This document shows positions 678 through 60,354 of a stretch of 64,000 nucleotides of DNA, one piece after another. The position numbers and the translations under genes were made by a program. Below the pieces are notes generated by a model, which was not told the origin of the DNA, searched no databases, and worked only from the letters and a program-made list of their open reading frames with translations. Origin of the DNA: an uncultured candidate division Zixibacteria bacterium (GTDB lineage Bacteria; Zixibacteria; MSB-5A5; GN15; FEB-12); NCBI GenBank assembly GCA_963806185.1, contig CAWDXE010000006.1, forward strand, positions 86,064-150,063, read 5' to 3'. Position 1 is the stretch's first letter, and every line of letters starts with the position of its first letter.

Positions 678-3600
678 CTACTTGAGGAGCACCATCTTCT
701 TGGTGGCGCTATACGCACCAGCCGTCAAACGATAGAAGTAGATACCCGAAGCATATCTACCGGCATCCCACACCACTTGGTAATATCCGGGCTGGTCCTC
801 ACCCTCAAACGCGTTCACCGTCTGACCCAGGATATTGTATATCTCCAGCCGCCACTTGCCCGCTTCGGGCAGTGCGAAATCTATCTTCGTCTGAGGATTG
901 AACGGGTTCGGATAGTTCTGCGACAAGCTGTACGCCGTCGGCAGATTCGACAGCTTCGTCGCCACCACCAGACCGTCCGCCGAACCGATGTCGACGCTCT
1001 TCACCGCTGCCGTGTCCGCTCAGCGTCAGCAGCTCGCCGGTTTCAATCGCACCCTTGCCGGTGGAACTGAACACCAGGATGCGCGTCACCTTGCCGTCGA
1101 AGCTGTATTGCAGCTCCATGTCCTTCGCCGCGGAGCCAAGGACCGGCTTAACGTCACCCTCGACCACCACCTGCACGCCGCCTATTCGCGTGTTGCAGTC
1201 GCTGATGCGCAAGGCATCGCCGGAGACCGCCACGGTCGCCTCGTAGCCGGCGTTGGGATTGAGTTTCTCGTACGGCGAGGCATCGCCCACCACCACGCGG
1301 ATCAGGTACACCAGGTCTCCGACCGTCAGCGGTATGCCGTCCGCATTCACGTCCGAAGCCGCTATTGCGCCCTTCAATCCGAACGTTGGCGGGATACACG
1401 TCGGGCAATCCTGCGGGAAAGCGCTCAGCCCCTTGATGAAATACTGAGTGAACATGACCACGTCGGCGATTTCGTACGCCAGATCATTCAGGTTGATATC
1501 ACCGCGCGCGTCGATGGAATCAGCGCAGACGATATCGATGCCGCCGTTGGTGAAATCGACACACCGCTGCGGCAACCCCTTGCCGCCGGGGATCAGGCAG
1601 CTATTCGGCGCGCCGAAGTAACTCGGCATCGGGTACGAATTGTCGGTGATGTTATGCAGTTCGAGATCGAACACGTTGCGCGAAATCCAGAGCGTATCGC
1701 CGCCCTTGCTCGACAAGGCGTTGTCACCACACTCGAGCCAGAAGAAGCTCACCGGCGCGTACTGGCACTCGAGCGACCGATCATTCGACACCAGGAAGTC
1801 TATCGTCGCCATCGTCCCTACCTGACCGTCAAAGAAACAGCTCGGATGGTACGCTCCGTTGTTCGTCTCAGCGATACCGGCGATACGCAGCAGCCCGCTC
1901 GGACAGCCGTCGCCGCAGTTGCCGTCGGCGCCGTACCGAAGGTGAAGTACTCCCAGCCGCAACCTTCAAAGAGCGAACCGGGCGTCACCGTGTAGGGGGT
2001 CAGAGCCGTCGCGTCATACGCGATCAGGAAACTGAATCCGCCGAGCGGCTTGCCCGAACCGTTCAGGAAGATATCGACCAGTGAATGCTGCCCCTGGAAT
2101 GCGTCGTGAACCTTCTCGATCTGCACGTGTATGCATTCGTCGATCTGGACTTTGACACAGATCGTATCCTTGTCGATCAAGCCGCATTGATCGGTCGCGG
2201 TCAGTTCAAGACAATAGGTTCCGGTCGTGTCGGCGTTGAAACAGACCTGGCCGTTCGCATACGTTCCGAGCGGCGATACGGTCACGCTACCAACATTGAG
2301 GTCCGGATCATTCACCGTGATGTCAAAGCAGACCTCGCCCACTGCTTCAAGATAGGCCGTGAAGTCGGGCAGAGGTGTAATCACCGGCGCGGCATTGAAG
2401 TTGACCGTCACCACCGACGTGTCATAGTCCACCGCTCCGCAGGCGTCCGTCGCCTTGAGTATAAACTGGTAAACCTTGTCCGATCCGTCGCCGTTGGGCG
2501 CCGTCAGGCAGATCTTCCCGGTATTACTGTCATACGTGCCGAACGGCGAAAGCAATTCGCACGTCGACAGATTGTTGTCCTCGTCGGTACAGCCCGCGGT
2601 GATACAGACACTCGCGGTGCCGCAGGCGAAGACCGTCGTATCGCGACCGGCATTGGCCACCGGCGCGGCATTCAGATTGATCTTCACGAAGAACGAATCA
2701 ATGCACGACGCGCCGCACGAGTCACTGCACTGCACTTTCACCTTCACCAGTTGATCGACCGTCGGCGTGAAGACCCAGTTGCCGCCCACCAGCGATCCCG
2801 GCCCGGCCAGCAACTCGCAATGTGAGAAATTGCCGTTCGGATCGGTCGCCCCGACCGGAATGGTGATCTGTGTCGGAGTGCACTGGAATACAACGGTTGT
2901 GTCGGCCGGGGGCATCTGGCAGACCGGCGGCGTGTTGAGCGCGATCGTGATGACTACCGTATCCTGGTCCGCCACACCGCAATGGTCCACTGCCCGGGTG
3001 ATGAACGTGTAGGTCCCGGACGAACCCGGCGTGAAGCAAATCTGCCCGCCCGCATATGTGCCCGGGCCACTGATCAACTTGCAGCTATCCAGATTATTGT
3101 CGGGATCGGTGCACGACGCCGGCCAGCACACCTGCGTCGGCGTGCACAGCTTCAGCGACTGATCCGGGCCGGCGTTGGCCACCGGCGGCCGATTCTGCAG
3201 TACGTTCACCGTAATCGTATCCGCGTCACCCGCGCCACAGGCGTCTGTGGCAAGCACAATTATCTGATGTACGCCCGCGCCGATTGGCGTGAAGCAATAC
3301 GGGCTGACGGCATTGGTATCCGCCACCGTGCCGTCAAGCTTCACGAATCGAATCGAAATATTGTTATTGGCGTCAGTGATCGTGAACGGTATGCACACCG
3401 GACCGGTCGCACACTGGAACACCGTCGTGTCGGCGCCAAGTGTCACCACCGGCGCGCTATTGACTGTCACATTGTAGGTCGCCGTGATCGTGTCGGCCTT
3501 GCCGCACGAATCAGCCACCGCTGCCGTCACTGTGTACGTTCCGGCGGCGCTGATCGTGAAGCACCATTGCCCCGACGCGCTCACGGTTCCGCTGCCCGTC

Positions 3601-6600
3601 AGTCTCGACCAGGTCAGCCCGTTGCCGTCCGGATCGGTCGCCGCGAGTTGGCGACACACCTGTCCACCGGTCGCGCACACGAAGGTATCGACAGGCGTCA
3701 CCTCGGTCGCCACCGGCGCCCGGTCGATCTGGACATTCACTTCAAGGTCGCAGGTATCGGCGCCGCAAGCACTGGTCGCGATGACGCGCAATACATAGTG
3801 TCCGGTCGTATCGGCCGTGAAGCAGACGTCACCACTATTGTACGTACCGATCGGCGACACTGTGACCGTCCCGCCGCCCATCACACCGACCGGGATACAT
3901 ACCTGGCCGGCCGAGCAGAGGAACTTTGACGTCACACCCGGGCAACTCAACTGCGGCACGCTGCCGATGGTCACGTTGAACGTCACCTGGCAGGTGTCTG
4001 CGCCGCACGAGGTGGTGGCAATTACCGTCGCTGTGTAGGTTCCCGACACCGCGGCGTCGAAACAAAGCTGGCCGCCACTATAGGTACCAAGCGTCGTCGT
4101 CACCGTGGCTGTGCTCGGTGTTATCTCAAGTGTCTGGCACACCGGCCCCGCCGCGCACAACGATACCGCTATCGGACCGCTCGGGCAGGCTATGTCGGCC
4201 CCTTGACCGGTCGTCACAGTTATAACTACGGTATCCTGATCACTACCACCGCACGAATCGACCACACCGACGATAAACTGGTAGCTGCCCGCGCCGCTCG
4301 GCGTGAAGCAAATTTCGTTGGTCGCTGTGTTGATGGATCCGAATCCGGAAATCATCGTTTCCGTCAGGCCGCTCGTCCCGTCGGCATCGCTCACATTGTA
4401 GTTTAAGCAGATCGGCGACAATGTGCACTGGAACACGGCGCTGTCGGCCGGCAACGTCACCACCGGTACCGAGTTCAACACCACAGTCACTGTGACCGTG
4501 TCGTCAGCCTCAAGACCACAGGCATCTTCCACGTGGAGGACAAAGACATAACTGCCCGACGCATTCGGCGTGAAGCAAATCTGCGAACCGTTGAATGTAC
4601 CCGGCCCGCTGAAATCACACACATTCTGATTGTTATCCGGGTCGGTACAGGCTGCCGGCAGGCATATTTGCGTCGGCGTGCACTGGAAGACATTGGTGTC
4701 CGCGGGTAATACCGCTACCGGCGCCTGATTGACCGTCACAACCGCATCAATCGTGTCCGCTGCCGTGGCGCCGCAATTATCCGTGATCGTCAGGATGAAA
4801 TGATACGTCCCGGTCGTATCGGCGTTGAAACAGACCTGCGAATTGGCCAGGTCGAGCGTCCCGCCGCCCGCCAGCGTGATGACCGGCGTTGGGCTGTCAT
4901 TGTCCGTCGCCGTGAACTGGAGACAGACCTGCTGCGGTCCGCACAGGAAGAACGGGTTGTACGATGCAAATTCAATGGTCGGCTTCGAGTTGATGCGGAA
5001 ATCAACCGTGAAGCTCTCCGTGCAAGTCGCTCCGCATGAATCAGTGCACTGAATGCCGACCGTCACGACCTGGCTCTGGGCCGACGGCGTGTAGCACCAA
5101 TTGCCGCCCGTCAGCATACCCGGCCCCGATGTAATTTCGCACGACAGCAGGTTGTTATCGGTGGCATACGCCGGCAGGCAGACCTGCGTCGGCGTGCACT
5201 GGTAAATGACCGTGTCATTCGGCACGACGCAGACCGGCGCCGCGTTGAGCGTGATATATATCACTGATGTGTCAACGTCGGTCTTGCCGCAGGCGTCGAT
5301 GGCTTCGAGAATGAACGTGTAGGTTCCCGACGTCGACGGAGTGAAACAGATTTGCGATCCGTCAAACGACCCCGGCCCCGCGATCAGGTTGGTCGCCGTC
5401 AGATTGCCATTCACATCCGAACTGCCGGCCACCCAGCAAATCGCCTGTGGCGCGCAGAGCACAACAGTCGAATCGCGACCGGCGTTGGCCACCGGCGCGC
5501 TGTTGTGCGTGTAATAGATCACGACCGTGTCGTAGCTGATCAGACCGCAGGCGTCGGTCGCCTTCAGCACAAACTCATAATTGAGCGTTCCGGTCGGCGT
5601 GAAGCAAATCTGGCCGCCGCTGTATGTACCGGGGCTGTTCACCAGCTGAACAGTGGTGAGATTGCCGTCGGGATCGGTCGCGCCCGCCGGCCAGCAGATT
5701 TGCTGTATTTCACACTGGAATATTGTCTGATCCGGCCCGGCGTTGACCACCGGCGCCCGATTCAGAGTCACTGTCACTCTAAGCGTGTCAACCGCTGTCG
5801 CACCGCACGAATCCAGCGCTTGCGCGACAAGCGTGTATACTCCGGCCACCGTCGGCGTGAAGCAAAGCTGACCGGCGTTTAGTGTTCCTGAACCGGAAAG
5901 CAGCGTCACCGCCTGCAGGTTTCCGTTGGCGTCACTAACCGTGTATGGCAGACAGATCTGCGCCGCGGCACACTGGAAGAGCGATGTGTCATTGGCCAGC
6001 GTCAGTACCGGCACGGCGTTGATCGTTACATTATATGTCACAGTAACGGTATCCGCCGCCCCGCATGAATCAGCTACCTGCGCGACGACACTGTATGCAC
6101 CCGAGCCGGCCGGCGTGAAGCACCACTGACCGTCCGCCGCCACTGATCCGGCGCCGGAGATTCGACTCCAGGTCAGCGTTCCGCCATTCACATCCGCAGC
6201 GGAGAAACTGTAGCACACCTGAGTCGCCACACACTGGAAGACATTCACCGGTGTCGTCGGATTCACGGCCACCGGCGCGCTGTTGCGCGTTACCGTCGTC
6301 GATACATAGCACGTATCCGCGCTGCAACCCGTTCCTGCAATAACGCGAATCACATAGGTACCGCTCGTGTCGGCCGTGAAACAGAGTTGACCCGCACTAT
6401 AACTGCCAATCGGCGAAACAGTCACTGTCGCACTCGCCGGCGTCACTGTCACCGGCCGGCAGAGCGAGGTCGGCGCGCAGATGAAATAGCTCGCCGCCGG
6501 CGGACAGGTCACATCGGCAAATTCGCCGAAGGTCACTGTCACGTGTACCGTATCGCGGGCCGTCACACCGCAGGAATCGCTCACCTGGGCGATAAAGGAG

Positions 6601-9600
6601 TAGGTGCCACCGGTGCTTGGTGTGAAGCAAATCTGATTGCCGCTAATCGTACCGCTGCCGGAGATGAGTGTTACCGACTGAATATTGTTATTCGGATCGC
6701 TGGTCACGAAGCTCCGGCAAATCTGTGCCGGGGTGCAGAGATTGACCGTGGTGTCGCCGGCGATAGTGATACTCGGCGCACCGTTTATGACTATGTCATA
6801 GGACAACGATACCGTGTCGGCGGCGCCGCACGAATCGGCCACCTGGGCCACGACACTGTAGGTACCGGTTCCCGTCGGCGTGAAGCACCAGTTACCGCTT
6901 GTACTCACCGAACCCGAACCGGACAGCCGCGTCCAGGTCAAGGTGCCACCGTTGATATCGGTCGCTGTAAACTGCGTGCACACCTCCGTCGGCGTGCACT
7001 GGAAGATTGTCGCGGGCAAGCGCGGATTGGCCGCCACCGGCGCTGAATTGATGGTTACATGCGCCGTAATGAAGCAGGAGTCGGTGCCGCACGGCGTCGA
7101 CGCCTTCACCTTCAGAATATAGGTGCCCGACGTATCAGCCGGGCAGATCACATTGCCGCCCACATACGACCCGATCGGCGTCACCGTATAGGTCGCCACC
7201 GGCGCTCCACCCACGGCGATACACAAACTGCCCGGCCCGCAGATGAATATCGTCTGCTCCGGCGGGCAAACCAGCACCGGCGGCTGGCTCACGGTCACAT
7301 TAAACGTGATGTCGCAGGTATCCGCGCCGCACTCGGCCGTCGCGATCACGCGAGCCGTGTATGTGCCCGAGGCCGGTGCATTGAAACAAAGTTGACCGCC
7401 GCTGAACGTACCCAGCGTCGTCGTCACCGTCGCATTCGCCGGTGTGATCGTCAACGCCTGGCAGATCTGGCCGCCGGCGCACTCCGTGATGTTAATCGGT
7501 CCGGTCGGACAATCGATCACCGCCACCGGGCCGAAGGTCACGGTTACGTTGACCGTATCTCTGGCTGACAGACCGCACGAGTCGCTCACTTGAACGATGA
7601 ATTGATACGACCCGGCGCTGCTCGGAGTGAAACAAACCTTGTTGTTGACGGCGTCAAGCGTGCCATACCCCGAAATAAGCGTCTTGGTCAAACCGCTCGA
7701 GCCATTAGGATCGGAAACCGTAAAACTCCGGCAAATCTCGACCGGCGTACACAGATGTACGGTCGTGTCGTTGGCGAGGGTAAGCGACGGTGCACTGTTT
7801 ACGGTCACATTGTATGTCAGGTTGACCGTATCTTTGGCGCCGCACGAATCCGCAACTACCGCGCTCACCGCGTAGTTCCCATTACCCGCCGGCGTGAAAC
7901 ACCACTGCCCGCCGGCTGAAACCGTGCCGGTCCCGCTCAGTTTACTCCAGGTCAGCGTTCCGCCATTGACATCCGCGGCTGTAAAGGTGTAGCAAATCTG
8001 GGCCGGCACACACTGGAAGACACTCACCGGCGTCGGCGGATTCACCGCCACCGGCGCGCTGTTCTTCGTTACCGTTGTCGTGACAAAGCAGGTGTCGGCA
8101 CTGCATCCGGTCGTTGCAATTACGCGCAGCACATACGTGCCGCTCGTGTCGGCGGCGAAGCAGACGTTACCGGCACTGTAGGTACCGATCGGCGATATCG
8201 TCACCGTGGCACTTGCCGGTGTCACCGTCACCGGACGGCAGATCGACGTCGGGGCGCAAATGAAGTAGGCCGCGCTCGACGGACACGTGACGTCGGCATA
8301 CTGCCCCATCGTCACGGTCACGACTACCGTATCAAGATCGTACGCGCCGCACGAATCCGTCACTGATGTGACAATCTGGTAGGTCCCGCTCGCACTCGGG
8401 GTGAAACACACCGTGTTGGCCGCCGTGTCAATCGCACCAAAGCCGGAAACCAGTACCTCGGTCAGCTTGCTTGTCCCATTCGGATCGCTGACTGCATAGC
8501 TCCGGCAAATCTGAGTCGGTGCACACAGGAAGATCGTCGTGTCATTCGCCAGCGTGATCGTCGGTGCGCCGTTCAGGGTGACATTGTAGGTGAGCGTTGT
8601 CGTATCCTTGGCGCCGCAGGAATCGGCGACCACCGCCGTTATTGCATAGGCTCCCGACGACGCCGGCGTGAAGCACCATTGCCCGCCGCTGGTGAGCGTC
8701 CCGGTCCCCGTGAGTTTCGTCCAGCTCAACGTGCCGCCATTGACATCGCTGGCCGCAAAGGTGTAGCACACCTGGGCGGGAGTGCATTGAATGAGATTTA
8801 CCGGCGTGGTCGGATTGACCGCTACCGGCGCAGAGTTCAGAGTGACTGTATAGCTGATTGAGGTAGTATCTTTGGCGCCACACGAATCGGACACCACGGC
8901 CGTTACCGCATAAGTCCCGGAAATCGTCGGCGTGAAACAGAACTGACCGCCCGACGTCACTGTCCCCGACCCGGCCAGCTTTGTCCAACTGAGCGTCCCG
9001 CCATTGGGATCGGCCGCCGTGAAGTTGTAGCAGATTTGCGCCGAGGCACACTGGAAAACCGTCTGGTTCGGCGGATTCACGGCCACGGGAGCTGCATTGA
9101 GCCCGATCGTCACCACCACCGTATCCAGATCGACGGCGTTACACGAGTCGGTCACCTTGATGACAAATGTCGAGGCGCCCGCCGCCCCGGGTGTATAGCA
9201 AATCTGATTGCCGGCAAGCGTCCCCGGCCCCGACAGCAATTGCGTCGACTTTATATTGTTGTCCGGATCGGTGAAACTGACCGGGAAACAAACCTGCCCG
9301 AGTGAGCAGAGGAATTTCGTGAAATCGGCCCCGGCGTTGGCCACCGGCGGGCGATTTATGACCACGGTGACCAGAGTCGTGTCGGCTCCGACATGACCAC
9401 ACTGGTCGGTCGCTGTCACTATCACCGTGTAGACGCCGGCCGTGTCGGCCGTGAAGCAAACGTCACTACTGGTCGATGACGGCGCCGTGCGCGCACCAAA
9501 GCCGTCGATTTCGATTACCCCTGATGTGCACTTGATGTATACCTGGTTGAACGGCAGACCGTCCGGCAGATCGAACGCAACTCCACCCGTTCCGGATCCG

Positions 9601-11000
9601 CTCGTACCGCCGGGAACGGTTCCCGTGAACGAATACACCACGGTCCCGCTCAACTTGAACTGCAGGAGAGCTGTGCCGCCGCCGTCGCTGTTGGAGAAAA
9701 TGACAAAATCACTGTTGGAGCCGTTGCATGTCCTGATCGTGCTTGAGAATCCAACCGTCACATAGTTTCCGCTCGAAAAATCAACCGAGCCGTCACCCAA
9801 TCCGCCATCAGGGCCACCTGCACCCGGCAACGTGAAGGTCAAATCAGTCGGCACCCCCTTGAGTTGATCGGCCGATTGCGCCGGGCCGACGCCCGACGGG
9901 AACGATCCGTAACTGACAATGGAGCTCACGAACACAAAGTTCGGCAACGTCACCGTAACACCCGAGGAGGCGTTTACCGGTGAAACAAAGTCGCCCGCCA
10001 CGAATAGTGCCTTGCCCGGCTGGCCGCCGCCCACCTGCGTGACCGTGCCACCCAACTGGCGCAAATAACTTACCTGATCGTAATTCGATTCATTACCGGC
10101 GTACACGCCGAGGTTGCTCACCACCGTGTCGATATCACAATTCGGATCGACAATCTGCACGGGCAGACAAATCTGCTGCGGGCCGCACTGCCCGACTGTC
10201 CTGTTCGCCGGCATTGTTACGACCGGCGCTGTGCCGTAGTTCGCCACAACTTTGAATGCCTTGCACTCATTAGTCGATGACAACTCAATTCGCTGGGTCG
10301 GATTACACGCCGAGTTTGGCGACTGATACTTGCTGGGTTTGGGCTCGCCACGGAACTTGATGCGAATGCTGTACTGCCCCGTCGCGACCGGCATGGCAAA
10401 TGTTACGCACGCATTCCCGTTGGCGTCGGTGGTCGCCGAGTCCTGGGCAAGCTGGCCGACGTCTGCGCCGCAATTCCCCGTGTTCACGAAAAACAGGACG
10501 CGCCGGTTCGCCAATGGCGCCCGGTTGCCGCCCCCGCAATTCTCCGCCAAATTCGCACAGACTTCCAGCGGTCGCCCCGCGCAGACGGAATCCGGAAGGC
10601 CGGTCGTAAAGGCAAGCAACACGTTGCAGTCAGTGAAGGTCGCTGTAGCCGTCAGTCCGGAACTCAAGCCCAGGGCGTCCACATAGAGAGTCTTGTTGAC
10701 CGCGTCATCCGGAACGATCCAGATTGCCGAGATGCTCCCCTCACCGTCTGCCGTCACCGTCCACGGTTCATAAAACTGGGCATTCTCCGGCTCCGGAAGA
10801 CCTACCTGTAGATGAACCTGCAATTGGACCGATTCGTTAGCCCAGTATCCGGCGCCTTCGATGTAAACCGTGTCGCCGGGGGCATAATCTAGCGTGTCAG
10901 TACTGACAATCGCCGAGAGCGTGGCCGCTTGTGCTGCTGTGCACAGCAAAACGGCGCCAACTAGGACTGCGAGACCTCGAAACAAATTGTACGTTCCCAT
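678..11000 (-). CDS. Giant secreted Cys-rich Ig/cadherin-like repeat protein (~3,440 aa) with cohesin-like, dockerin-like and T9SS type-A sorting domains; split by two indels (~1937, ~1006)
   Basis: Signal peptide, then roughly 27 repeats of ~87 aa (N.AP...C...C...D.NG...CFTP...G.Y.....DSCG..D). ORFs 1818..11000, 805..1962 and 678..1004 join into one protein ending YSLSQNYPNPFNP...SGIYFYRL...KKMVLLK. Confidence 0.85.
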
Positions 11001-48500: not shown

Positions 48501-49145
48501 TCCACCACCGGATGGATCATTATACCGGCCCTCCCCGATGACAATGTCTACTGGTGGCGTGTACGTGCGTACGACGGAACCGAGTATTCGTCCTGGTCGA
48601 CCCTCGAAAAATTCGTCCTGAATGCCTCGTCACAGGCGCCGTCGGCTTTCACGCTGACCACGCCGCCCGAGCCGTCGAATCTGCCGGTCTTCGATCTCAA
48701 GCCGACGTTCAGTTGGTCGACCGCCACCGATACCGATCCGGGTGATACCGTGCGCTACCGGTTGGAGATCGACGACAACAGCGGCCTGACGACACCGACC
48801 ACTGTCGACTCGCTGCTGATCACCTCACACGAGGTCGCCGATTCGCTGGCTTTTGGAACGCAATACTGGTGGCGTGTTACCGCGTACGACAAGTCCGGGC
48901 TATCCACTCAGGCGGCCGTCAAGAACTTCTGGACCTGGCAGCTTGGTGATGTTGATCACTCGCACGGCACCGACATCGGTGACCTGACCGTGCTCATCAA
49001 CAATCTGTTCATCACCTTTGAACCGATCAATCCCCCGTTGGTCGCCGACATGACCGGTGACTGCCAGGTGGATATCGGCGACCTGACTGCGCTTATCAAT
49101 AACTTGTTCATCACGTTTGGACCTTTGGGTATCGGCTGCCAGTAA
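45507..49145 (+). CDS. M6 family (immune inhibitor A-like) metalloprotease with FN3-like repeats and a C-terminal dockerin-like domain
   Basis: VLVILVDFPD, IHAGPGAE, IWSH, HEWGHVMGLPDLY and WSLMAGGSW motifs; terminal duplicated GDVDHSHGTDIGDL / ADMTGDCQVDIGDL. Confidence 0.92.
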   Translation: MIPYARITILTLALSVLLAVSLLAVAPTDEARERWKAEGTYDKQIQNWTDFKAAGGCQPNENTPFPEGRVSTRTALDANAVDTLKVLVILVDFPDCKYDQSTYAIPGGGTLTMNAVGTTAKFDSLLFSVATVPTGSMTDFYWETSYQRILIQGTSVGWYTMPQNYSYYVGTNDGLTMGSTLAGQAILAADAGGVDFTQYDNDDDETVEGVIIIHAGPGAETGAYGIWSHKSNPQGAGLPDGMLVASYTLNPEEYGSGLSTVGVYCHEWGHVMGLPDLYDINETNSPNNDGLGDWSLMAGGSWNDNGRHPAHLDAWCKTQLGLASITWLSANQKQVEVPAIQYNPVVYGLRNTTVSTSQYWLIENRRKVGFDAYIPWHGLMIYHIDNSVGTNDNPDRLHVGLEQADGMFSLEQVGGSDVGDPWPGSANKRNFNDRTVPNSRTNIAGAVTQVGVWNISNSDSLMYADMDIRWSRPYVEFFGSDSIAISDAAGGDNDGLYEQGETVTFNCRIRNTMLSVGMARMHLSCDNPNLTILNNDGLSSAVLTSNTNVTLATPMQIQIPANFQSRKVNFTLQVSIDSTISPGNDSTFSHTFTFARSFGAPQILVVDDDNGQLRSGVGYEKRIKDALDRLGFPYVVWTKLTQGSPTPSTMFQYLSVVWYTGPSSQDGGDYGGVLTVADVTAMKAHLDAGGSLLLSSNTGADQLNTLDPSFLTNYLHCTVDGHIPVDEFAQEYHGVTGSSIGDGLKIQFGSSEPVYYMGALLDTINGGQFEFYGQGEMGGTVYGYIGVSYLGTYRTLFLTVPIESTNDGLIAQGWAPRDSLLMRALNFYQGSPVVPAISYLRVQGEGDINHVVTNSPTLQWSYVHWLGITPQQYELEVGTDNEWSTAEMWDPATVPTGDSSVAYGGAPLADGQTYYVRVRAHDGSDWTTWFVFAMRLNSAPGAAAPLDPVNGAISATGNLTTTNAADAESDGLAYQFQVYADSAGTSLLRSSSDVSETPSTTGWIIIPALPDDNVYWWRVRAYDGTEYSSWSTLEKFVLNASSQAPSAFTLTTPPEPSNLPVFDLKPTFSWSTATDTDPGDTVRYRLEIDDNSGLTTPTTVDSLLITSHEVADSLAFGTQYWWRVTAYDKSGLSTQAAVKNFWTWQLGDVDHSHGTDIGDLTVLINNLFITFEPINPPLVADMTGDCQVDIGDLTALINNLFITFGPLGIGCQ

Positions 49146-49351: not shown

Positions 49352-51175
49352 TCATGGTACCTCGAAGTGAAAACAAGGAATCACCGGCGGCGGTCCTTCG
49401 AGAAACAGGAAATTCACCATATACGTAAGGTCCCCAGAGGCCTCAACCTGCCCGTCGCAGTTGCAGTCGCCAAGGAGTGGCGTCGGGAAAGGCGGCTCAA
49501 AAGAGATGAACATGTAGTCTATCAACCGGGTGAGGTCGTTGATGTCAATGCCTCCGCTGTTGTCGGCATCGCCGCGTGCAATCGAGAGGACAGCCCGAAA
49601 GGCGTCGACGCGGCCGTGACCGTACTCCAAGTTGGGCGAACCTGTCCCCAGCGGAACCGCCGAGTGATCAAGAATATCGCATACCTCTGTTCGAGATAAA
49701 CTCTCGGATCGGGAAAGTATCAGAGCGGCGGCGCCCGCTACGACTGGGCAGGCGGCAGAAGTGCCCCCAAACAGGCAATCGTAGTTGATGTCATTAGGGG
49801 AGTCGCAGTTCCATGTTCGCGGGTATGTCGGGTTATATCCGAGCGAGTCCATCTGATCGAGAGTCCACACGTCGCCATAATGCCCGGCCATACCGCTGGG
49901 CGCCATGATATCCAGATTCATCCCGTATTGACTATAGTACCAACGCGTATCGCTTGAAGTGAGTGCACCTACGGCGTAGCAACTTAGTCTGAACGATGGA
50001 TAGCAGATGAAAGAAGCCTCAAAATTGCCGCTCGCGAAGATAATGGGACAACCCTTTCCGTCGCGTCCGAACAATGCAGCCCGGTCGAGCGCATCATCGA
50101 CATCTGCGTACAGATCATCACCGGTTATGTAGGCCCAACTATTCGAGAGAATATCAGCGCCGTTCTCATATGCCCAGGCAATCGCACTGGCGACATGGTC
50201 GTGAGTCACTCCCTGTCCGTCATCCCCAAATATTTTCACGGGAAGTATCTTGATGGCGGGTGACATTGAAATGACTCCTGAAGTTACCCCTAGTCCAGCC
50301 AAACTGTCAGTAGTATGACTTGCTGCAATAATACCTGAGCACGCCATCCCATGGTTTCTCCATGGCCCCGGTGCGGGATTGGTGTCATAAGGAGTGACGG
50401 AGAAGTCTCGACCGTTGAGGATTCTTACTTGTGGAAGGTCCTCGTGAATAGTAACTCCCTCATCTATCACTGCCACAACAATAGTATCAAGTACCCCGCT
50501 AAAATCCCATACAGTCTGCGAATTGAATTGCCCGATCACTTTCTTGACATGCCACTGGTGGCTCTGATAGTGATCAAATAGCTTGTAAGAACACAAGACT
50601 GGCCTCAAACCAAATATCGGGTGCGAATAGCGTATTCCGGGCAAGGCGTGAAGATCATTAGCTAGGGTCAATAGGCGTCGCGTCTGCGGATTCAGGTTGC
50701 GAGCCACGAATACGTTTGGCAGGTACTCGAGTTCGCGCACGGTGTCTGCTCCATATATGTGGAGGATCGAAGAGAGACTGTCGCGCGAAATATTCGCTTC
50801 GAACGCTATGACAAGTTCATCTCCGACCGGTGCGGGCAGTGAATCATTGATGTAGTAGTATGGTTCAGCGACCTCAATGCCGCTCGTGCGATTCAAGGTG
50901 TCCAGAAATTCATACAAACCACCCCCCGGTGCGATAGCTACGGACACGAAGCCATCCAACGCGTCCCCGTCCGCAATTATGGAATCAAGTCGCGGCACGG
51001 ATTCGATCACCCACTCCTGCGGAACTTCGGTATCAAACTTGAGACAAACCTTAGCTGTGTCGACCCGCAGATTGATCTGCCCGCTCCCGCCGTAGTAATA
51101 CTCCGCTTGTGCCGATGGAGATGCCACCAGCACGAGCAGCGTCATCAGTGCACATGCAATGACGCGCCTCTGCAT
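49352..51175 (-). CDS. S8 subtilisin-like serine peptidase with a C-terminal dockerin-like domain
   Basis: Triad VAVIDEG / NHGMACSGIIAA / FGGTSAACP; terminal GDADNSGGIDINDL..GDCNCDGQV..GDLTYMVNFLF; signal peptide; AAGGAGGAG RBS. Confidence 0.92.
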   Translation of the reverse strand: MQRRVIACALMTLLVLVASPSAQAEYYYGGSGQINLRVDTAKVCLKFDTEVPQEWVIESVPRLDSIIADGDALDGFVSVAIAPGGGLYEFLDTLNRTSGIEVAEPYYYINDSLPAPVGDELVIAFEANISRDSLSSILHIYGADTVRELEYLPNVFVARNLNPQTRRLLTLANDLHALPGIRYSHPIFGLRPVLCSYKLFDHYQSHQWHVKKVIGQFNSQTVWDFSGVLDTIVVAVIDEGVTIHEDLPQVRILNGRDFSVTPYDTNPAPGPWRNHGMACSGIIAASHTTDSLAGLGVTSGVISMSPAIKILPVKIFGDDGQGVTHDHVASAIAWAYENGADILSNSWAYITGDDLYADVDDALDRAALFGRDGKGCPIIFASGNFEASFICYPSFRLSCYAVGALTSSDTRWYYSQYGMNLDIMAPSGMAGHYGDVWTLDQMDSLGYNPTYPRTWNCDSPNDINYDCLFGGTSAACPVVAGAAALILSRSESLSRTEVCDILDHSAVPLGTGSPNLEYGHGRVDAFRAVLSIARGDADNSGGIDINDLTRLIDYMFISFEPPFPTPLLGDCNCDGQVEASGDLTYMVNFLFLEGPPPVIPCFHFEVP

Positions 51176-55914: not shown

Positions 55915-56111
55915 ACAATGTCAAGAATTGTACCTCTTTTTGCCCCTGCAAGCAATAATTTTGTTCGCGCCTCCGGCTTTTTTTGACCGCCGTTCCCAAT
56001 TAACTTGACAAAGCCCCTCGTGATTTTTTTCATTTGCGCCAGTGCTATTGCGGAATTTGTACACTACATTTGTGTATAAAGGACCAAAGACATCTTAGGA
56101 GGTTGTTGTTC

Positions 56112-56624
56112 ATGAGACTTGCCAAACTCTCTCTCATCATCCTGGCCTTGGCGGCGATTCTTGCCTCGATTGCCATCGCCCAGGAAAAGCCGAAGGCCAC
56201 CATCGTTGGCCCGGAAAAATGCAAAATGTGCCATAAGGCTGAATTCACTGCGTGGTCTGCCACCAAGCATGCCAAGGCCTTCGACGCGCTGAAGCCCGAA
56301 GAACAAGCCAAGGCCGAATGCGTCGGCTGCCACGTTACTGGTAAGACGGCCGAAGGCGTTGCGGTGAACGGCGTGACTTGCGAAGCCTGCCACGGCGCCG
56401 GCTCGGAGTACAAGAAGCCGACTATCATGTCAGCGGCCAAATGGAAAGCCGAACCTGACAAGTACAAAAAGATGGCTCTGGAAGCCGGCCTCGTTATGCC
56501 GACTGAAGCCACCTGCAAGAACTGCCATAAGGCTGAAGGAAACGCGAACTTCAAGGAACGCGATTTCAAGGCCCTGATGAGCCAGGTTCACGCGGTCAAG
56601 GCGGAAGCCCCGGCCACGAAGTAA
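56112..56624 (+). CDS. Periplasmic tetraheme cytochrome c (c554-like)
   Basis: Signal peptide; four CxxCH motifs (CKMCH, CVGCH, CEACH, CKNCH); AGGAGG RBS. Confidence 0.9.
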   Translation: MRLAKLSLIILALAAILASIAIAQEKPKATIVGPEKCKMCHKAEFTAWSATKHAKAFDALKPEEQAKAECVGCHVTGKTAEGVAVNGVTCEACHGAGSEYKKPTIMSAAKWKAEPDKYKKMALEAGLVMPTEATCKNCHKAEGNANFKERDFKALMSQVHAVKAEAPATK

Positions 56625-57326: not shown

Positions 57327-57812
57327 TCAGGCGTAATTGGTCATCATCTCCGATATCATGCGCATGTGACCCGCCTCGAATTTCGCCAACTGCTCGAACA
57401 TCTTCTTCCCCTCGGTCTGATCCATGATCTTCGCCTGACCGTCAAACAGGTCATGCGCTTCCTTCTCGAGCTGATAGGCAAGATCGAGAATCTGCTTCAC
57501 CGTCGTCGTCTTCGCCAATTGGCTGAGCAAATCACGATGCACGGCCGACATATCCTCCGTGATCTCCGGCAGCCCGGGCATTTTGAGAATGTCCGCCGTA
57601 CTGATCCACTTCTCACTTCGGTTCAGCGAATCGTACTGACGTTCCAGCACGTGAAAATGGTCCTTCTCTTCATGCGCCAGCTTCTCCAGTATGGTCTTGA
57701 ACGCGGCCGACTGACTCTTCTTAGCCGCCGCGACATAGAAGACATAACTCGCTACCTCGGACTTAATTCCCGCTGTGAGAGCATCCAGAATCTGTCGACT
57801 AACCGGGGTCAT
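57327..57812 (-). CDS. Ferritin-like/rubrerythrin family diiron protein
   Basis: E..SY.FY, EEKDH, E.EAH.LF and EAGH motifs in two helical pairs. Confidence 0.85.
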   Translation of the reverse strand: MTPVSRQILDALTAGIKSEVASYVFYVAAAKKSQSAAFKTILEKLAHEEKDHFHVLERQYDSLNRSEKWISTADILKMPGLPEITEDMSAVHRDLLSQLAKTTTVKQILDLAYQLEKEAHDLFDGQAKIMDQTEGKKMFEQLAKFEAGHMRMISEMMTNYA

Positions 57813-58077
57813 ATCTGCTTCCTCTATGATCAAATGCCAAATCTTCTATCTCTTACCGGCCGCCCGGCAAACACCACCAACTAAGTTATCTTTTTCACAA
57901 GCGATGTCAACAGAATTGTGGCGCTCAATCTTCGACGCCGCTGCTTTCCCTTGCGTCCGTTCGGCTCATGTGCTAATATGTCTCTATTAGGTCAAAGTGA
58001 CCAACCCTGCGCTCATTCAAGCCGGGGACTAAACGTCTAATGCCATCCTCCAGGCGTGTGCATGCTCCGGGAATGGT

Positions 58078-60354
58078 ATGCCGCAGATCAGAGTTCGGAT
58101 CCGATTCAGTTGTCGCAGCAGATGCGTGCTCGCGCTGGTGTATGCGCTTTTATGGCTCACGGCGCCGACGAGTACATATGCCCAATCCTGCTGTGAAAGC
58201 GCCACCGGCAACCTCGATTGTGAAGAGATGTCCATTCCCGACATCGCCGACCTCACCATCCTCGTCGATCACCTCTTCCTCACCTTCACCCCGCTCTGCT
58301 GTGAGGCCGAGGGGAATGTCGATGGCAGCGCCGACGGCGTGATTGACATCGCCGATCTCCAGGCCCTGATCGAGAATCTCTTTATCAGTTTTGCGGAGAC
58401 CTCGCCGTGCGATATGGAACGCGTCGTAACCGACTCGACCCGGCTGGCGATCGTCCGTATCGTTGCCCCGGTCGCAGACTCATTACTGCGTCACAGTCTC
58501 CACTTTGGTGAAGACCTGCGCGATTTTCTTTCCACCATCCCCCGATTCGAAGCGACCGGGTACGACACGGCCACACAGAGCGTATGGGGAAGGTTCGTCG
58601 ACGGCACGCTTTATGTCGCCGTCGACAATTTTGCGCCTTCCACTGACAGCGGTATGTCGACGCTCATATCATCTGCCTCGACGCCTCCGCGCGTGTCATC
58701 ACCGCCAGGAATGGCATCCATCGCGAAACGTACAAACACTGCTCCCGCCGGCCTGCCCTGGTCGACCTCCGTGCGCTCACTGGTCACGCTCGACAGCACT
58801 TTTCGGCCCGGCAATGAGGCGATTGAGACTATGCTCCAGGCCAACGGCTACACCGTTGTTTCGCGCGATGCGTCCGTCGACGGACTGCTTCACGTGGGGG
58901 GCGATGGCGTTTTCTATTTTATGACTCACGGCGGCCACGCACACTTGCGCTATGGTCGGGAGACCTTTGCCCTGGAGACCACGACACTCTGTACGGAGTC
59001 AACCGTTGCCGTCTATCACACGGGGCTGGAAACAGGTTCCCTGGCGATCATGCAGGTGATGGATCGCGCGCGCCTTACTTCTCAGCTGCGCTTAGCCATC
59101 ACCACCGATTTCGTGATTGCCCACTGGAATGACTTCGCCCCCAACGCGATGGTCTTCATCAACACCGGCGGCATTCTCGCTCCGCAGGGTTTGTCCCTTC
59201 GGGAGATTCTTTTCGAAAAGAAAGCGTCCGCGTGTTTCGGTTGGACCGGCCCGATCGGTGCTGATGCCGCCAATTTCGTCGCCTCATTCTTGTTTGATCG
59301 CCTGCTCGGCGCCAACGAAATCGAACCAAAAGAAACTCCGGCCCAACGTGCCTTCGACTATCAGCACATCTATCAGGATCTCGTCTCACGCGCTTTGCAT
59401 CAATACACCCCCGGCGACAAAACTCCGGGTACGACAACATTTCAGGTTGATGCCGGCCCCGGCGATTTCGGCCTGCTCACACCAAGCATCCGCCGGCTAT
59501 CGATCGACGCTCATGACGTCATGTCAGTGACCGGCTTCTGCGGAGACAATCCCGGCGCCGCAGGACGCCTGCTCGTGAATGACACATCGCTCCCGGTGTT
59601 GTCGTGGGAACCGGGTCTCATTCGCGTGCAACTGCCCGACTCCGGCCTTGGCGCCGTTGGCCCGGTCGCCATCGAGATCGATCCCCGCTCAAACGGCGGC
59701 GCAACACCCGCCATTCGTCGAAGCAACATTGTTCACCTCACCGCGTGGGAAGGCTCTATGACCTACACCCATACCGATCTCGGCACTCTCAAGTACACGA
59801 TCGATTCAGACATCCGCCTTCGCGCCGATCTGCATCCGTACCGCGACGAACCGCATACCGTTCCCCTTCTTCCACCTGTCGACGTCGTTGGATCGCTGGC
59901 CACAAGCGCCGACATATCCGCCGCCGGCACACACACGATGACCACGGGAGATTCTTCGATCACCATCAAATGGTCGGGCGGCTGCACGGTGCCGGCCGCT
60001 GCAATCGAATCGGCTGACGGTCAGTTTGTTGCCGGTGTGTTTGATGCACAGAACTACTTGCTGAACTTGCGACTTTCCATGAATGGCGCCGATAGTTGCA
60101 TCACCGCCACCACCCTGCTTAATTCCGGCGATTCAACGCACCGCTTCCTCACCGCCACAATCGATTCCACTATATATGATGATAAACCAGGTCTGATTTT
60201 TCACCTGCCCTTGGAAGTTAATTGGGATATTCAGTCCGGAATTCGCCAAAGCATTGTTCCGTCACTCGTTGACCCATCGAAATCCATGAGCATCAGGCTC
60301 CAGTGGAACACGCTTTCAGCCCAGTACCCTCCGCACCCTGACGCTCCCCGGTAG
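58078..60354 (+). CDS. Secreted hypothetical protein with an N-terminal dockerin-like domain, an alpha/beta central domain and an IPT/TIG-like domain
   Basis: Signal peptide; CC..TGNLDC..PDIADLTILVDHLF..EGNVDGSADGVIDIADL..LIENLFI; later VLSWEPGLIRVQLP. Confidence 0.75.
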   Translation: MPQIRVRIRFSCRSRCVLALVYALLWLTAPTSTYAQSCCESATGNLDCEEMSIPDIADLTILVDHLFLTFTPLCCEAEGNVDGSADGVIDIADLQALIENLFISFAETSPCDMERVVTDSTRLAIVRIVAPVADSLLRHSLHFGEDLRDFLSTIPRFEATGYDTATQSVWGRFVDGTLYVAVDNFAPSTDSGMSTLISSASTPPRVSSPPGMASIAKRTNTAPAGLPWSTSVRSLVTLDSTFRPGNEAIETMLQANGYTVVSRDASVDGLLHVGGDGVFYFMTHGGHAHLRYGRETFALETTTLCTESTVAVYHTGLETGSLAIMQVMDRARLTSQLRLAITTDFVIAHWNDFAPNAMVFINTGGILAPQGLSLREILFEKKASACFGWTGPIGADAANFVASFLFDRLLGANEIEPKETPAQRAFDYQHIYQDLVSRALHQYTPGDKTPGTTTFQVDAGPGDFGLLTPSIRRLSIDAHDVMSVTGFCGDNPGAAGRLLVNDTSLPVLSWEPGLIRVQLPDSGLGAVGPVAIEIDPRSNGGATPAIRRSNIVHLTAWEGSMTYTHTDLGTLKYTIDSDIRLRADLHPYRDEPHTVPLLPPVDVVGSLATSADISAAGTHTMTTGDSSITIKWSGGCTVPAAAIESADGQFVAGVFDAQNYLLNLRLSMNGADSCITATTLLNSGDSTHRFLTATIDSTIYDDKPGLIFHLPLEVNWDIQSGIRQSIVPSLVDPSKSMSIRLQWNTLSAQYPPHPDAPR

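What the first reader, a model, noticed from the sequence alone, without database searches (positions are those of the whole stretch)
678..60354. Candidate cellulosome-like protease scaffold: cohesin-bearing T9SS-CTD proteins plus dockerin-tagged peptidases
Seen: two paralogous secreted proteins (678-11000, 27566-30209) carry a cohesin-like pattern (V.I....+GGF.FLIAYDA..L....V..G...SG++RI...AT+DF.VS; ~1560-2130, ~28400-29060), then a duplicated EF-hand dockerin-like unit and a T9SS type-A CTD. Three other secreted proteins carry a different dockerin-like class (DI.DL..LI..LFI.F) and no CTD: M6 protease (48945-49140), S8 protease (49375-49575) and the 58078 protein (58189-58410). Known: cohesin-dockerin pairs assemble cellulosomes, where separate dockerin types load enzymes and anchor scaffolds. 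Inference: a two-tier surface complex for protein degradation rather than cellulose, displayed through T9SS-like secretion. No glycoside hydrolase is visible in this window.
Basis: partly seen in the sequence, partly recalled or inferred. Interest (0 to 1): 0.75.

Follow-up and report, generated by a model that had tools for sequence, protein, structure and literature searches.

The report
Cohesin-dockerin surface display system in Zixibacteria
Five genes in this window belong to a genome-wide and phylum-wide set of docking modules that probably hang about ninety secreted proteins, proteases among them, on cell-surface anchor proteins, but binding is untested and both anchor genes in the window are broken in this assembly.

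Summary
Every motif sits at the stated coordinates and the domain calls survive testing.

- **Cohesin fold.** Pfam misses the cohesin-like domain, even in intact paralogues. An AlphaFold2 model of the closest intact paralogue matches only cohesins (Foldseek E 7e-10; VIA Z 17.2).
- **Both dockerin classes are dockerins.** The class on the cohesin proteins matches by fold (Z 10.0) and profile. The class on the enzymes matches by profile only.
- **T9SS.** Both sorting domains pass TIGR04183. SprA and PorU are present.

The interpretation needs correcting in four ways.

1. Both cohesin genes in the window are frame-broken: 2 breaks in gene 1, 7 in gene 2. Intact paralogues lie elsewhere in the genome.
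2. This is not a locus. The genome has 91 ORFs with the enzyme-type dockerin, about 14 cohesin ORFs and 44 CTD loci. In a sample of 101 genomes of the phylum (probably Zixibacteria), 92 have the dockerin and 92 have the cohesin.
3. The cargo is mixed. 15 of 91 ORFs are peptidases, 0 of 91 are glycoside hydrolases and 46 of 91 have no other Pfam domain.
4. Which cohesin binds which dockerin is unknown.

The closest precedent is the cellulosome-like system inferred in Cloacimonadota. I rate this a new variant of a known kind.

The parts
678..11000 (-). Gene 1: giant surface protein of about 3,440 aa if read through. It has a signal-peptide-like N-terminus, Ig/cadherin-like repeats, a W-type cohesin, a class A dockerin, a beta-sandwich and a T9SS CTD. 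In this assembly it lies in three frames (1818-11000, 805-1965, 678-1019).
   Evidence: The C-terminal 580 aa of the intact paralogue L007 match at 77-79% identity in three successive frames.
2142..9398 (-). Repeat region of Ig-like, cadherin-like and PKD-like domains
   Evidence: Pfam Big_9 E 7.1e-62 (8 stretches), PKD_4 E 8.3e-21, Cadherin_5 and Cadherin_4. About 25 tblastn repeat hits to one paralogue repeat.
1504..2141 (-). W-type cohesin of gene 1, split by a one-base frame change at about 1936-1941
   Evidence: Family HMM 66.4 bits (positions 2-82) and 208.0 bits (positions 74-222) on the two pieces. The site was read. The fold was shown on the paralogue L007:5068-5718, which is 79% identical over residues 72-217.
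1264..1527 (-). Class A dockerin of gene 1: two Ca-loop/helix repeats with a 10-residue Cys-containing insert between them
   Evidence: Class A HMM 125.4 bits. Alignment A4. hhalign against class B gives probability 84.8%, E 6.6e-6. The top 5 PDB profile hits are dockerins. The fold on the paralogue gives Z 10.0, 9.7 and 9.3 to dockerins.
690..914 (-). T9SS type A C-terminal sorting domain of gene 1. It lies in the third piece, in the same phase as the main ORF.
   Evidence: PF18962 43.9 bits, cut-off 27. TIGR04183 47.3 bits, cut-off 23.
27566..30209 (-). Gene 2: smaller paralogue with a signal-peptide-like N-terminus, a He_PIG Ig domain, a W cohesin, a class A dockerin, a beta-sandwich and a CTD. 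It is broken by 7 frame changes.
28442..29060 (-). W-type cohesin remnants of gene 2, spread over three phases
   Evidence: Family HMM 135.0 bits on 28640-28978. Frame map. My reading of the shifted frame.
28127..28360 (-). Class A dockerin of gene 2. The first Ca loop is lost to a frame change at about 28354.
   Evidence: Class A HMM 96.1 bits, positions 13-78. Alignment A4..
27578..27805 (-). T9SS type A sorting domain of gene 2
   Evidence: PF18962 47.0 bits. TIGR04183 47.9 bits.
45507..49145 (+). M6 (immune inhibitor A-like) metalloprotease, 1212 aa, with an HEWGH motif and a signal-peptide-like N-terminus. A class B dockerin sits at the extreme C-terminus (48930-49121). No CTD.
   Evidence: PF05547 E 3.6e-23. 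TIGR03296 190 bits, cut-off 110.8. HEWGH at residue 266. Dockerin: PF00404 26.9 bits in the six-frame search but 22.0 against a cut-off of 22.9 in hmmscan; 91.8 bits to the genome profile.
49352..51175 (-). S8 subtilase, 607 aa, with a C-terminal class B dockerin (49391-49588). No CTD.
   Evidence: PF00082 E 5e-36, model positions 3-288 of 288. GTSAACP serine motif. Dockerin 74.7 bits to the genome profile. PF00404 not reported at E<=0.01.
58078..60354 (+). 758-aa secreted protein of no known family, with an N-terminal class B dockerin (58192-58395)
   Evidence: Dockerin 84.0 bits. No Pfam or NCBIfam family. The Atlas neighbours are only 'hypothetical protein' clusters.

Best explanation
The five window genes are members of a cohesin-dockerin surface display system that runs through the whole genome and most of the phylum. 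The phylum is probably Zixibacteria, in the FCB group.

**Receptor side.** These proteins have a Sec signal, Ig-like repeats, one cohesin, their own class A dockerin, a beta-sandwich and a T9SS type A sorting domain. The cohesin is either a divergent 'W' subtype, with a roughly 70-residue insert and eight conserved cysteines, or a canonical Pfam-type cohesin. By analogy with Bacteroidota, the T9SS translocon SprA exports them and the PorU sortase attaches them to the cell surface.

**Ligand side.** About 90 secreted proteins without a sorting domain carry a cysteine-rich class B dockerin, nearly always at the extreme C-terminus. I infer that the anchored cohesins capture these proteins by Ca2+-dependent cohesin-dockerin binding. 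This would coat the cell with peptidases (S8, M6, M1, M12B, M28, M43, M64, C10) and with many adhesin-like and unknown proteins. I also infer that the class A dockerin links one anchored protein to a cohesin on another.

**Shown:** the domain identities, their partition between proteins, the T9SS genes, and the genome and phylum census.

**Inferred:** all binding, the pairing of dockerin class with cohesin type, surface attachment, and how the ligands cross the outer membrane.

In this assembly the two receptor genes of the window are frame-broken. If that is real, intact paralogues do the work.
For: **Cohesin fold.**
- The AF2 model of L007:5068-5718 has pLDDT 88.9 and pTM 0.87.
- All 38 listed Foldseek PDB hits are cohesins. 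The best is 2vn5_C at E 7e-10, with target-normalised TM up to 0.84.
- VIA-align over 48,161 chains puts cohesins in ranks 1-20, best Z 17.2, 141 residues, 2.1 A.
- The W-family HMM also hits an ORF that Pfam calls Cohesin (L012) at E 2e-8.

**Dockerins.**
- Class A fold: Z 10.0, 9.7 and 9.3 to solved dockerins over model residues 210-296.
- Class A profile: the top 5 PDB hits are dockerins.
- Class A against class B: hhalign probability 84.8%.
- Class B: 19 of 28 PF00404 hits in the genome are over the cut-off.
- Class B: a profile seeded from 18 of those finds 100 modules in 91 ORFs. Its top 10 PDB hits include named dockerin chains and endoglucanases matched at their C-termini.

**Partition.**
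- All 5 intact W-cohesin ORFs, both window genes and 5 further ORFs with canonical-cohesin hits end in a T9SS CTD.
- 1 of 91 class B ORFs has a CTD.
- 86 of 91 class B ORFs have the dockerin within 25 aa of the stop, and 75 of 91 have a signal-peptide-like start by a crude regex.

**T9SS.**
- SprA scores 542 bits (cut-off 200) and PorU 653 bits (cut-off 420). A PorV-like gene is adjacent.
- 44 CTD loci were found by tblastn.

**Phylum.**
- W cohesin is in 92 of 101 and Pfam cohesin in 95 of 101.
- Every class B-positive genome has at least one cohesin type.
Against: - No binding evidence of any kind exists.
- Pfam PF00963 does not report the W domain even in intact paralogues at E<=0.1.
- Both window cohesin genes are frame-broken.
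- Ligand proteins without a CTD need another route across the outer membrane. The genome has two secretins, but their system is unknown.
- Six genomes have 15-56 class B dockerins and no W cohesin with this query. W is therefore not required for class B.
- Seven genomes have Pfam cohesins and no class B match.
- 46 of 91 cargo ORFs have no recognisable domain, so 'what is displayed' is mostly unknown.
Confidence: 0.55

Rival explanations
1. One reading: a dedicated two-tier protease scaffold. Class B dockerins on proteases load onto the W cohesins of the two window proteins, and class A dockerins anchor those scaffolds, giving a complex specialised for protein degradation.
For: - Peptidases are the only enzyme class that recurs on class B proteins: 15 of 91, including 7 S8. 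No glycoside hydrolase was found in any of the 91.
- The W domain has a cohesin fold.
- The two dockerin classes differ clearly. The class A HMM barely detects class B and the class B HMM barely detects class A.
Against: - 76 of 91 class B ORFs have no peptidase domain.
- Each W protein has a single cohesin.
- Six genomes have many class B dockerins and no W cohesin. The 5 of them that were tested have Pfam cohesins.
- The scaffolds are already anchored by a CTD, so an anchoring dockerin is not needed.
- Both window scaffold genes are broken.
Confidence: 0.15
2. Different wiring: W cohesins bind class A dockerins of sister proteins, building a lattice or chains of giant Ig-repeat adhesins on the surface. 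Class B dockerins dock onto the canonical Pfam-type cohesins.
For: - W and class A occur in cis in the 7 long W genes of this genome. L010's copy is degenerate, and the eighth W ORF, L017, lacks class A.
- The canonical-cohesin protein L012 has the same cassette.
- Class B occurs without W in 6 of 101 genomes, and the 5 tested have Pfam cohesins.
- Canonical cohesins sit on small CTD proteins such as L013 and L015.
Against: - In one search, four class B-positive genomes (G059, G071, G081, G094) had no Pfam cohesin at E<=1e-4. G071 did show one.
- The AF2 single-chain model gives no confident packing between the domains (pTM 0.59 against 0.87 for the cohesin alone).
- No binding data exist.
Confidence: 0.2
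3. No pairing at all: the dockerin-like modules are Ca2+-stabilised tags with another role, such as a sorting or secretion signal, glycan binding or surface binding. The W domain is simply an adhesin beta-sandwich.
For: - 86 of 91 class B modules lie within 25 aa of the stop, like a sorting tag.
- They carry conserved cysteines that cellulosomal dockerins lack.
- Seven genomes have Pfam cohesins without class B.
- From recall: non-cellulosomal cohesin-like and dockerin-like modules of unknown role are widespread (Peer et al. 2009, seen here only as a reference).
Against: - Four class B modules are N-terminal and one is internal, and 7 ORFs carry more than one.
- Cohesins go with a CTD and class B dockerins go without one. 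That complementary partition fits receptor and ligand.
- Both folds match solved partners of cohesin-dockerin complexes.
Confidence: 0.15
4. The two window cohesin genes are real pseudogenes, so nothing in this window scaffolds anything. The alternative is that the frame changes are assembly artefacts.
For: - There are 9 frame changes in about 4 kb of these two genes, while no other ORF of the window looked broken in the ORF lists and Pfam scans.
- DNA identity to paralogues is only 72-80%, so cross-mapping of paralogue reads is unlikely.
- The breaks are not at long homopolymers.
Against: - The frame changes strictly alternate in sign: gene 1 goes 2-0-2 and gene 2 goes 2-1-2-1-2-1-2-1. Independent mutations or errors would do that with a chance of about 1/128. 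The pattern fits a consensus that flips between two read populations held one base out of register.
- The shifted segments still match paralogues at 65-100%, so no decay has followed the breaks.
- Relatives hold frames of 2,400-3,600 aa with the W domain and no stops.
- The 8-contig assembly looks like a long-read MAG (my inference).
Confidence: 0.4

Closest known systems
Cellulosome-like system inferred in Cloacimonadota 'Ca. Stygibacter' (Williams et al. 2021, PMC8542988; abstract and passages read)
   Same: - A diderm FCB-related candidate phylum.
- Signal-peptide enzymes with C-terminal dockerins, including S8 and other peptidases.
- A giant non-catalytic cohesin protein ending in a T9SS CTD for surface attachment.
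- Inferred from MAGs only.
   Different: - There, one 3,755-aa scaffoldin has tandem cohesins plus CBM2/CBM3, and the cargo includes GH18 and GH57.
- Here, each receptor has a single cohesin fused to its own dockerin, no CBM and no GH among 91 cargo ORFs.
- Here, the main cohesin subtype escapes Pfam.
- Here, the dockerin set is about 90 per genome and is found across the phylum.
Clostridial cellulosome (C. thermocellum CipA with type I and type II cohesin-dockerin pairs; solved complexes 1ohz, 2ccl, 4fl4, 2b59, as listed)
   Same: - Cohesin jelly-roll and dockerin double F-hand folds.
- Many dockerins against few cohesins.
- Dockerins mostly C-terminal.
- A cohesin protein that also carries a dockerin of another class.
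   Different: - Gram-positive hosts with SLH or sortase anchoring rather than T9SS.
- Cohesin arrays on the scaffoldin.
- Cargo dominated by glycoside hydrolases.
- No cysteine-rich insert in the cohesin and no cysteine-rich dockerins.
Non-cellulosomal cohesin-dockerin systems: R. bromii amylosome (PMC4611034), Limousia mucinolysome (PMC12997984), ANME archaea (PMC9012536). Search listings only. Also the A. fulgidus cohesin 2xdh.
   Same: Cohesin-dockerin modules reused for substrates or functions other than cellulose. The 2xdh cohesin matches the W model at Z 14.7.
   Different: Those systems are organised around glycan-active enzymes or archaeal surface proteins. None is T9SS-anchored, and none is reported for Zixibacteria.

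Membership tests
Cohesin (PF00963; cohesin jelly-roll) | Scores above the Pfam gathering threshold. This is a detection criterion, not a biological one. | tested here: not met
   - No PF00963 hit on the window pieces at E<=0.01.
- No hit on 5 intact W paralogues at E<=0.1.
- The six-frame genome search finds 6 places, none in the window.
Cohesin (PF00963; cohesin jelly-roll) | Flattened beta jelly-roll fold that superposes on solved cohesins | tested here: met
   Tested on the intact paralogue L007, not on the broken window genes.
- Foldseek: all 38 listed hits are cohesins, best E 7e-10.
- VIA: Z 17.2, 141 of 143 residues, 2.1 A; ranks 1-20 are all cohesins.
Cohesin (PF00963; cohesin jelly-roll) | Sequence homology to recognised cohesins | tested here: met
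   - The W-family HMM hits ORF L012 at E 2e-8 over positions 2-152. Pfam calls residues 80-189 of that ORF Cohesin at 30.4 bits.
- Weak PDB profile hit to the ScaC cohesin 5lxv_A, E 0.14.
Cohesin (PF00963; cohesin jelly-roll) | Binds a dockerin | not testable with these tools
   Needs a pull-down, ITC or cohesin array.
Dockerin (PF00404) | Two tandem Ca2+-loop plus helix (F-hand) repeats | tested here: met
   - Class B consensus...GNVDCDxxxGVDIGDLTxLIDNLFI...EANCDGxGxVDIGDLTALIxNLFITF.
- Class A: GDINLNGLxYEIADxVxFTxYFI...ASDVNxDGxxLTVxDLVYLIRV.
Dockerin (PF00404) | Scores above the Pfam gathering threshold | tested here: inconclusive
   - M6 module: 26.9 bits, over the cut-off, in the six-frame search, but 22.0 against 22.9 in hmmscan of the whole protein.
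- The S8 module, the 58078 module and both class A modules were not reported at E<=0.01.
- Genome-wide, 19 of 28 hits are over the cut-off. A profile seeded from 18 of them scores the three window modules at 74.7-91.8 bits.
Dockerin (PF00404) | Dockerin fold | tested here: met
   Class A only, on paralogue L007: Z 10.0 (4fl4_A, 67 of 68 residues, 1.9 A), 9.7 (2ccl_B) and 9.3 (5m2o_B).

Class B was not folded. Its profile's top 10 PDB hits include named dockerin chains and endoglucanases matched at their C-termini, at E 0.0023-0.39.
T9SS type A sorting domain (TIGR04183 / PF18962) | HMM over the cut-off at the extreme C-terminus | tested here: met
   - TIGR04183 47.3 and 47.9 bits, cut-off 23.
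- PF18962 43.9 and 47.0 bits, cut-off 27.
- Both domains end 3 residues before the stop.
T9SS type A sorting domain (TIGR04183 / PF18962) | T9SS machinery encoded in the same genome | tested here: met
   - SprA TIGR04189: 542.4 bits summed, cut-off 200.
- PorU NF033707: 653.4 bits, cut-off 420.
- PorV NF033710: only 87.4 bits against a cut-off of 250, but directly downstream of PorU.
- GldK, GldL, GldM and GldN were not searched.
- The genome is 82% complete.
Cellulosome in the strict sense | Scaffoldin with several cohesins, and dockerin-bearing glycoside hydrolases | tested here: not met
   - One W cohesin per ORF in 8 of 8 W genes.
- 0 of 91 class B ORFs has a glycoside hydrolase family at E<=1e-5. 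There is one CBM9 and three beta-helix proteins.

The most novel reading that the evidence does not exclude
Zixibacteria as a phylum use cohesin-dockerin docking as their main way of dressing the cell surface. On this reading:
- Some 50-100 dockerin-tagged proteins per genome (peptidases, adhesin-like propellers and lectins, even a cytochrome) are held on T9SS-anchored cohesins.
- The receptors include a cohesin subtype that current models do not recognise, with a disulfide-rich insert.
- The conserved cohesin / class A dockerin / CTD cassette lets the anchored giants link to one another into a surface lattice.

That would be a general 'dockerome' in a diderm rather than a substrate-specific '-some'.
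Probability: 0.3. Interest if true: 0.75.

Novelty: new variant of a known kind. Interest (0 to 1): 0.55.

Why it matters
Cohesin-dockerin assembly is mostly studied as a Gram-positive device for plant-fibre digestion.

Here it appears in a widespread, uncultured sediment phylum with an outer membrane. It is coupled to T9SS anchoring, no glycoside hydrolase was found among the cargo, and the dockerin repertoire is as large as that of the best-known cellulosome producers.

If the binding is real:
- It explains how these bacteria hold extracellular peptidases and adhesins at the cell, which matters for protein turnover in anoxic sediments.
- It adds a cohesin subtype that current models miss.
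- It offers new orthogonal cohesin-dockerin pairs for protein engineering.

It is also a caution: the two flagship genes in the window are not intact in this assembly.

Tried and rejected
- **Complex prediction**. W cohesin (A1) with class B dockerin (A3) scored 0.02 and 0.01 against a mark of 0.32. The tool gave no verdict and the controls were not run. This says nothing either way.
- **Public reads**. No run holds window 600-2400; the best share of words is 0.07. Laying X1-X4 gave only short pieces of relatives. One X3 contig, with 45 bases laid and 4 other letters, has an extra base behind 1935 that would restore the frame. It comes from a relative, so it says nothing about this genome. The parts without cover say nothing.
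- **Another genetic code for the in-frame stops of gene 2.** Rejected, because the neighbouring phase matches paralogues across each stop. The stops come from frame changes.
- **Paralogue cross-mapping as the cause of the breaks.** DNA identity between paralogues is only 72-80%, so this is unlikely.
- **Phyletic profiles to assign the class B receptor**. Both cohesin types are near-universal, so the profiles do not discriminate. G071 showed a Pfam cohesin but none, which is a first-look difference.
- **Earlier notes of the scan.** None exist for this genome.
- **NCBIfam.** It has no model for the W cohesin or for either dockerin class.
- **The Atlas search on the body of the 58078 protein.** It gave only 'hypothetical protein' clusters at 0.92.
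- **The third domain of the cassette** (model residues 299-400). Only a weak match, Z 7.2 to a chitin-binding domain. The fold is not assigned.
- **L014.** Its cohesin is over the cut-off in the six-frame search but is not listed by hmmscan of the ORF. I count it as uncertain.
- **Asp and His motifs of the S8 protease.** My simple regexes did not find them. I claim only the serine motif and the full-length Pfam match.

Full report
**Setting.** The window is G000:C6:86064-150063, in a 3.65-Mb genome of 8 contigs that is 82% complete. GC is 54-60% throughout.

The genes in the finding lie among ordinary chromosomal genes:
- ThyX
- an M32 carboxypeptidase
- a Ser/Thr kinase
- phosphoglucomutase
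- a sigma-54 two-component pair
- methyltransferases
- an aminotransferase
- DivIVA

This is therefore not an operon or an island. Homologues of the cohesin proteins that carry a name are called Zixibacteria, Zixiibacteriota or GN15. Of 16 related loci in named records, 6 are titled Candidatus Zixiibacteriota, 1 FCB group, 7 'uncultured Ignavibacteriales' (third-party MAG labels), 1 'uncultured Planctomycetales' and 1 'uncultured bacterium'. I take the organism to be a Zixibacterium.

**The observation.** Gene 1 (678-11000, minus strand) starts with a hydrophobic signal-like N-terminus and about 2,400 residues of Ig/cadherin/PKD-like repeats (Big_9 E 7e-62).
- Its 3,060-aa frame ends inside the cohesin-like domain.
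- The sequence continues in a second frame (805-1965) and a third (678-1019).
- The C-terminal 580 residues of an intact paralogue align to these three pieces in order, at 77-79% identity.
- At the first break, gene 1 reads ...TACTTCACCTTCGGTAC..., where five paralogues are open and encode EYFT[FY]R[FY]G. One base is missing relative to them.

Gene 2 (27566-30209, minus strand) needs seven frame changes. Its two apparent in-frame stops are products of these shifts, not of another genetic code.

**Is the cohesin-like domain a cohesin?** Pfam says nothing, on the window pieces or on five intact paralogues at E<=0.1. Three other lines of evidence say yes.
1. The domain defines a large family. At least 1,248 proteins of 485-1,546 aa match at E<=1e-3. 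These are the proteins that sources label Zixibacteria or GN15.
2. An AlphaFold2 model was built on 44 family members for the paralogue closest to gene 1 (L007:5068-5718, 79% identical over residues 72-217). It has pLDDT 88.9 and pTM 0.87.
   - In Foldseek against the PDB, every one of the 38 listed hits is a cohesin. The best is E 7e-10, with target-normalised TM up to 0.84.
   - An independent all-against-all alignment over 48,161 chains gives Z 17.2 (5nrk_A, 141 of 143 residues, 2.1 A). Ranks 1-20 are all cohesins. The first non-cohesin fold is at Z 9.0.
3. An HMM of the family hits, at E 2e-8, an ORF of the same genome (L012) whose corresponding domain Pfam does call Cohesin at 30.4 bits.

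The domain is about 70 residues longer than solved cohesins. It has eight invariant or near-invariant cysteines, which suggests an insert held by disulfides. I call it the W type.

**The dockerins.** The unit after the cohesin (class A) has two Ca-loop/helix repeats.
- In a 401-residue model of the cassette (pLDDT 87.9), residues 210-296 superpose on solved dockerins at Z 10.0, 9.7 and 9.3.
- Its profile's top five PDB hits are dockerins, best E 1e-3.
- hhalign against class B gives probability 84.8% and E 6.6e-6.

For class B, PF00404 finds 28 places in the genome, 19 over the cut-off, including the M6 C-terminus at 26.9 bits. I seeded a profile from 18 of these and iterated it twice over 29,684 stop-to-stop frames. 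It finds 100 modules in 91 ORFs at domain E<1e-3. The three window modules score 91.8, 84.0 and 74.7 bits. Its top ten PDB hits include named dockerin chains and endoglucanases matched at their C-termini, at E 0.0023-0.39.

**The partition and the census.**
- W cohesins occur in 8 genes of the genome, one per ORF.
- Pfam-type cohesins occur at 6 further places, 3 of them over the cut-off.
- All five intact long W ORFs, both window genes, and L012, L013, L014, L015 and L016 end in a T9SS sorting domain. Two short ORFs (L017, L018) do not.
- Conversely, only 1 of 91 class B ORFs (L104, an S8 protease with four dockerin modules) has a sorting domain.
- 86 of 91 class B ORFs carry the dockerin within 25 residues of the stop, 4 carry it at the N-terminus, and 75 of 91 have a signal-like start by a crude pattern.

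Pfam content of the 91 ORFs at E<=1e-5:

| Content | ORFs |
|---|---|
| Peptidase domains: S8 x7, M6 x2, and one each of M1, M12B, M28, M43, M64, C10 | 15 |
| Glycoside hydrolase families | 0 |
| No domain other than a dockerin | 46 |

The remaining ORFs hold FG-GAP repeats, SBBP/DUF7948 propellers, C-type lectin with beta-helix, TSP3, LTD, CAP, CBM9, a glucose/sorbosone dehydrogenase and a cytochrome c7 domain.

The T9SS is present:
- SprA at 542 bits and PorU at 653 bits, both over their cut-offs.
- A PorV-like gene (87 bits, under the cut-off) lies directly after PorU.
- 44 CTD loci were found by tblastn.

**Breadth.** The sample is 101 genomes of the phylum, this one included.
- W cohesins are found in 92 genomes, 1-23 per genome. 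Many sit in frames of 2,400-3,600 aa without stops.
- Pfam cohesins are found in 95 genomes.
- Six genomes have 15-56 class B dockerins but no W cohesin with this query. The five of them that I tested have 1-8 Pfam cohesins.
- Six genomes have a W match, mostly a single weak one, and no class B.
- Seven genomes have Pfam cohesins and no class B.

Every class B-positive genome thus has some cohesin. The profiles cannot say which type is the receptor, and they show that W is not indispensable for class B.

**Mechanism.** The best-supported reading is a receptor-ligand display system.
- Cohesin proteins are exported and anchored by the T9SS. Attachment is inferred by analogy with Bacteroidota.
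- Dockerin-tagged secreted proteins are captured on them.
- The class A dockerin in each receptor is most simply a second-tier link to another cohesin.

None of the binding is shown. How CTD-less ligands cross the outer membrane is open: two secretins exist, but I did not type them.

**The frame breaks.** All nine frame changes alternate in sign. Gene 1 goes through phases 2-0-2 and gene 2 through 2-1-2-1-2-1-2-1. Independent one-base events would do this about once in 128.
- The shifted segments still match paralogues at 65-100%.
- No other ORF of the window looked broken in the ORF lists and Pfam scans.
- Of the CTD-bearing frames listed, only three are short (113, 119 and 290 aa).

I think a consensus artefact in strain-variable surface genes is somewhat more likely than true pseudogenes (about 60:40). 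I could not test this, because no public run holds the stretch.

**What is known.** No paper in the searchable library holds Zixibacteria with dockerin (0 papers), Zixiibacteriota with dockerin (0) or Zixibacteria with cohesin (0). One unrelated paper holds Zixibacteria with cellulosome. Subscription journals and supplements were not searched.

The same kind of inference was published for Cloacimonadota: dockerin-bearing S8 and C25 peptidases and GH18/GH57 enzymes, plus a 3,755-aa cohesin scaffoldin with a CTD (PMC8542988; abstract and passages read). Non-cellulose '-somes' and dockerin-rich archaea also appear in the search listings.

The present case differs in five ways:
- the Pfam-invisible cohesin subtype;
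- the single-cohesin plus own-dockerin plus CTD cassette;
- no glycoside hydrolase found among the cargo;
- the size of the dockerin set;
- its spread across a phylum.

I rate it a new variant of a known kind, of moderate interest, with the decisive experiments clear and feasible.

Noticed in passing
L103 (G000:C7:792682-794205): A class B dockerin ORF also carries a cytochrome c7-type multihaem domain (Pfam E 2.2e-6). It is a dockerin-tagged cytochrome. The window itself has a separate multihaem cytochrome at 56034-56624 (+).
   Followed up: no
L104 (G000:C7:811787-816679): The only ORF with both dockerins and a T9SS CTD. It is a 1,631-aa S8 protease with four dockerin modules (residues 568-633, 826-888, 1091-1154, 1345-1413), followed by Por_Secre_tail.
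   Followed up: partly
G000:C6:174000-199000 (24-49 kb beyond the window's end): A cluster of system genes:
- two class B dockerin proteins (L074, L076);
- a 3,037-aa He_PIG/cadherin-repeat protein with a C-terminal Pfam dockerin (L075);
- a canonical cohesin / class A dockerin / CTD protein (L012);
- a cohesin fragment (L018);
- an intact W cohesin protein (L008).
   Followed up: partly
window 678-2200 and 27566-30209: The 9 frame changes alternate strictly in sign and use only two phases in each gene. That is unexpected for independent errors or mutations.
   Followed up: partly
window 22009-22587 (-): An IS200-like Y1 transposase ORF (PF01797, E 1.3e-9) lies between the two cohesin genes.
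   Followed up: no
window 14805-17480 (+): A Ser/Thr protein kinase fused to PD40/WD40-like beta-propeller repeats (891 aa).
   Followed up: no
L011 (G000:C2:3572-5818) and L010 (G000:C2:946-3540): Two W cohesin genes stand in tandem on a 10-kb contig. L011 has one W cohesin followed by two class A-like dockerins. L010's class A unit is degenerate.
   Followed up: partly
L079 (G000:C7:41384-41980): A 199-aa class B dockerin ORF gives a weak NCBIfam hit to the CPR-type pilus protein PamT (24.3 bits against a cut-off of 240). This is probably chance.
   Followed up: no
PDB entries 8x39_A and 8x3a_A: Both dockerin profiles hit a 151-aa solved chain named only 'Serine protease', at chain residues 4-59 (E 0.018 for class B, about 1 for class A). 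It may be a solved protease-borne dockerin worth comparing.
   Followed up: no
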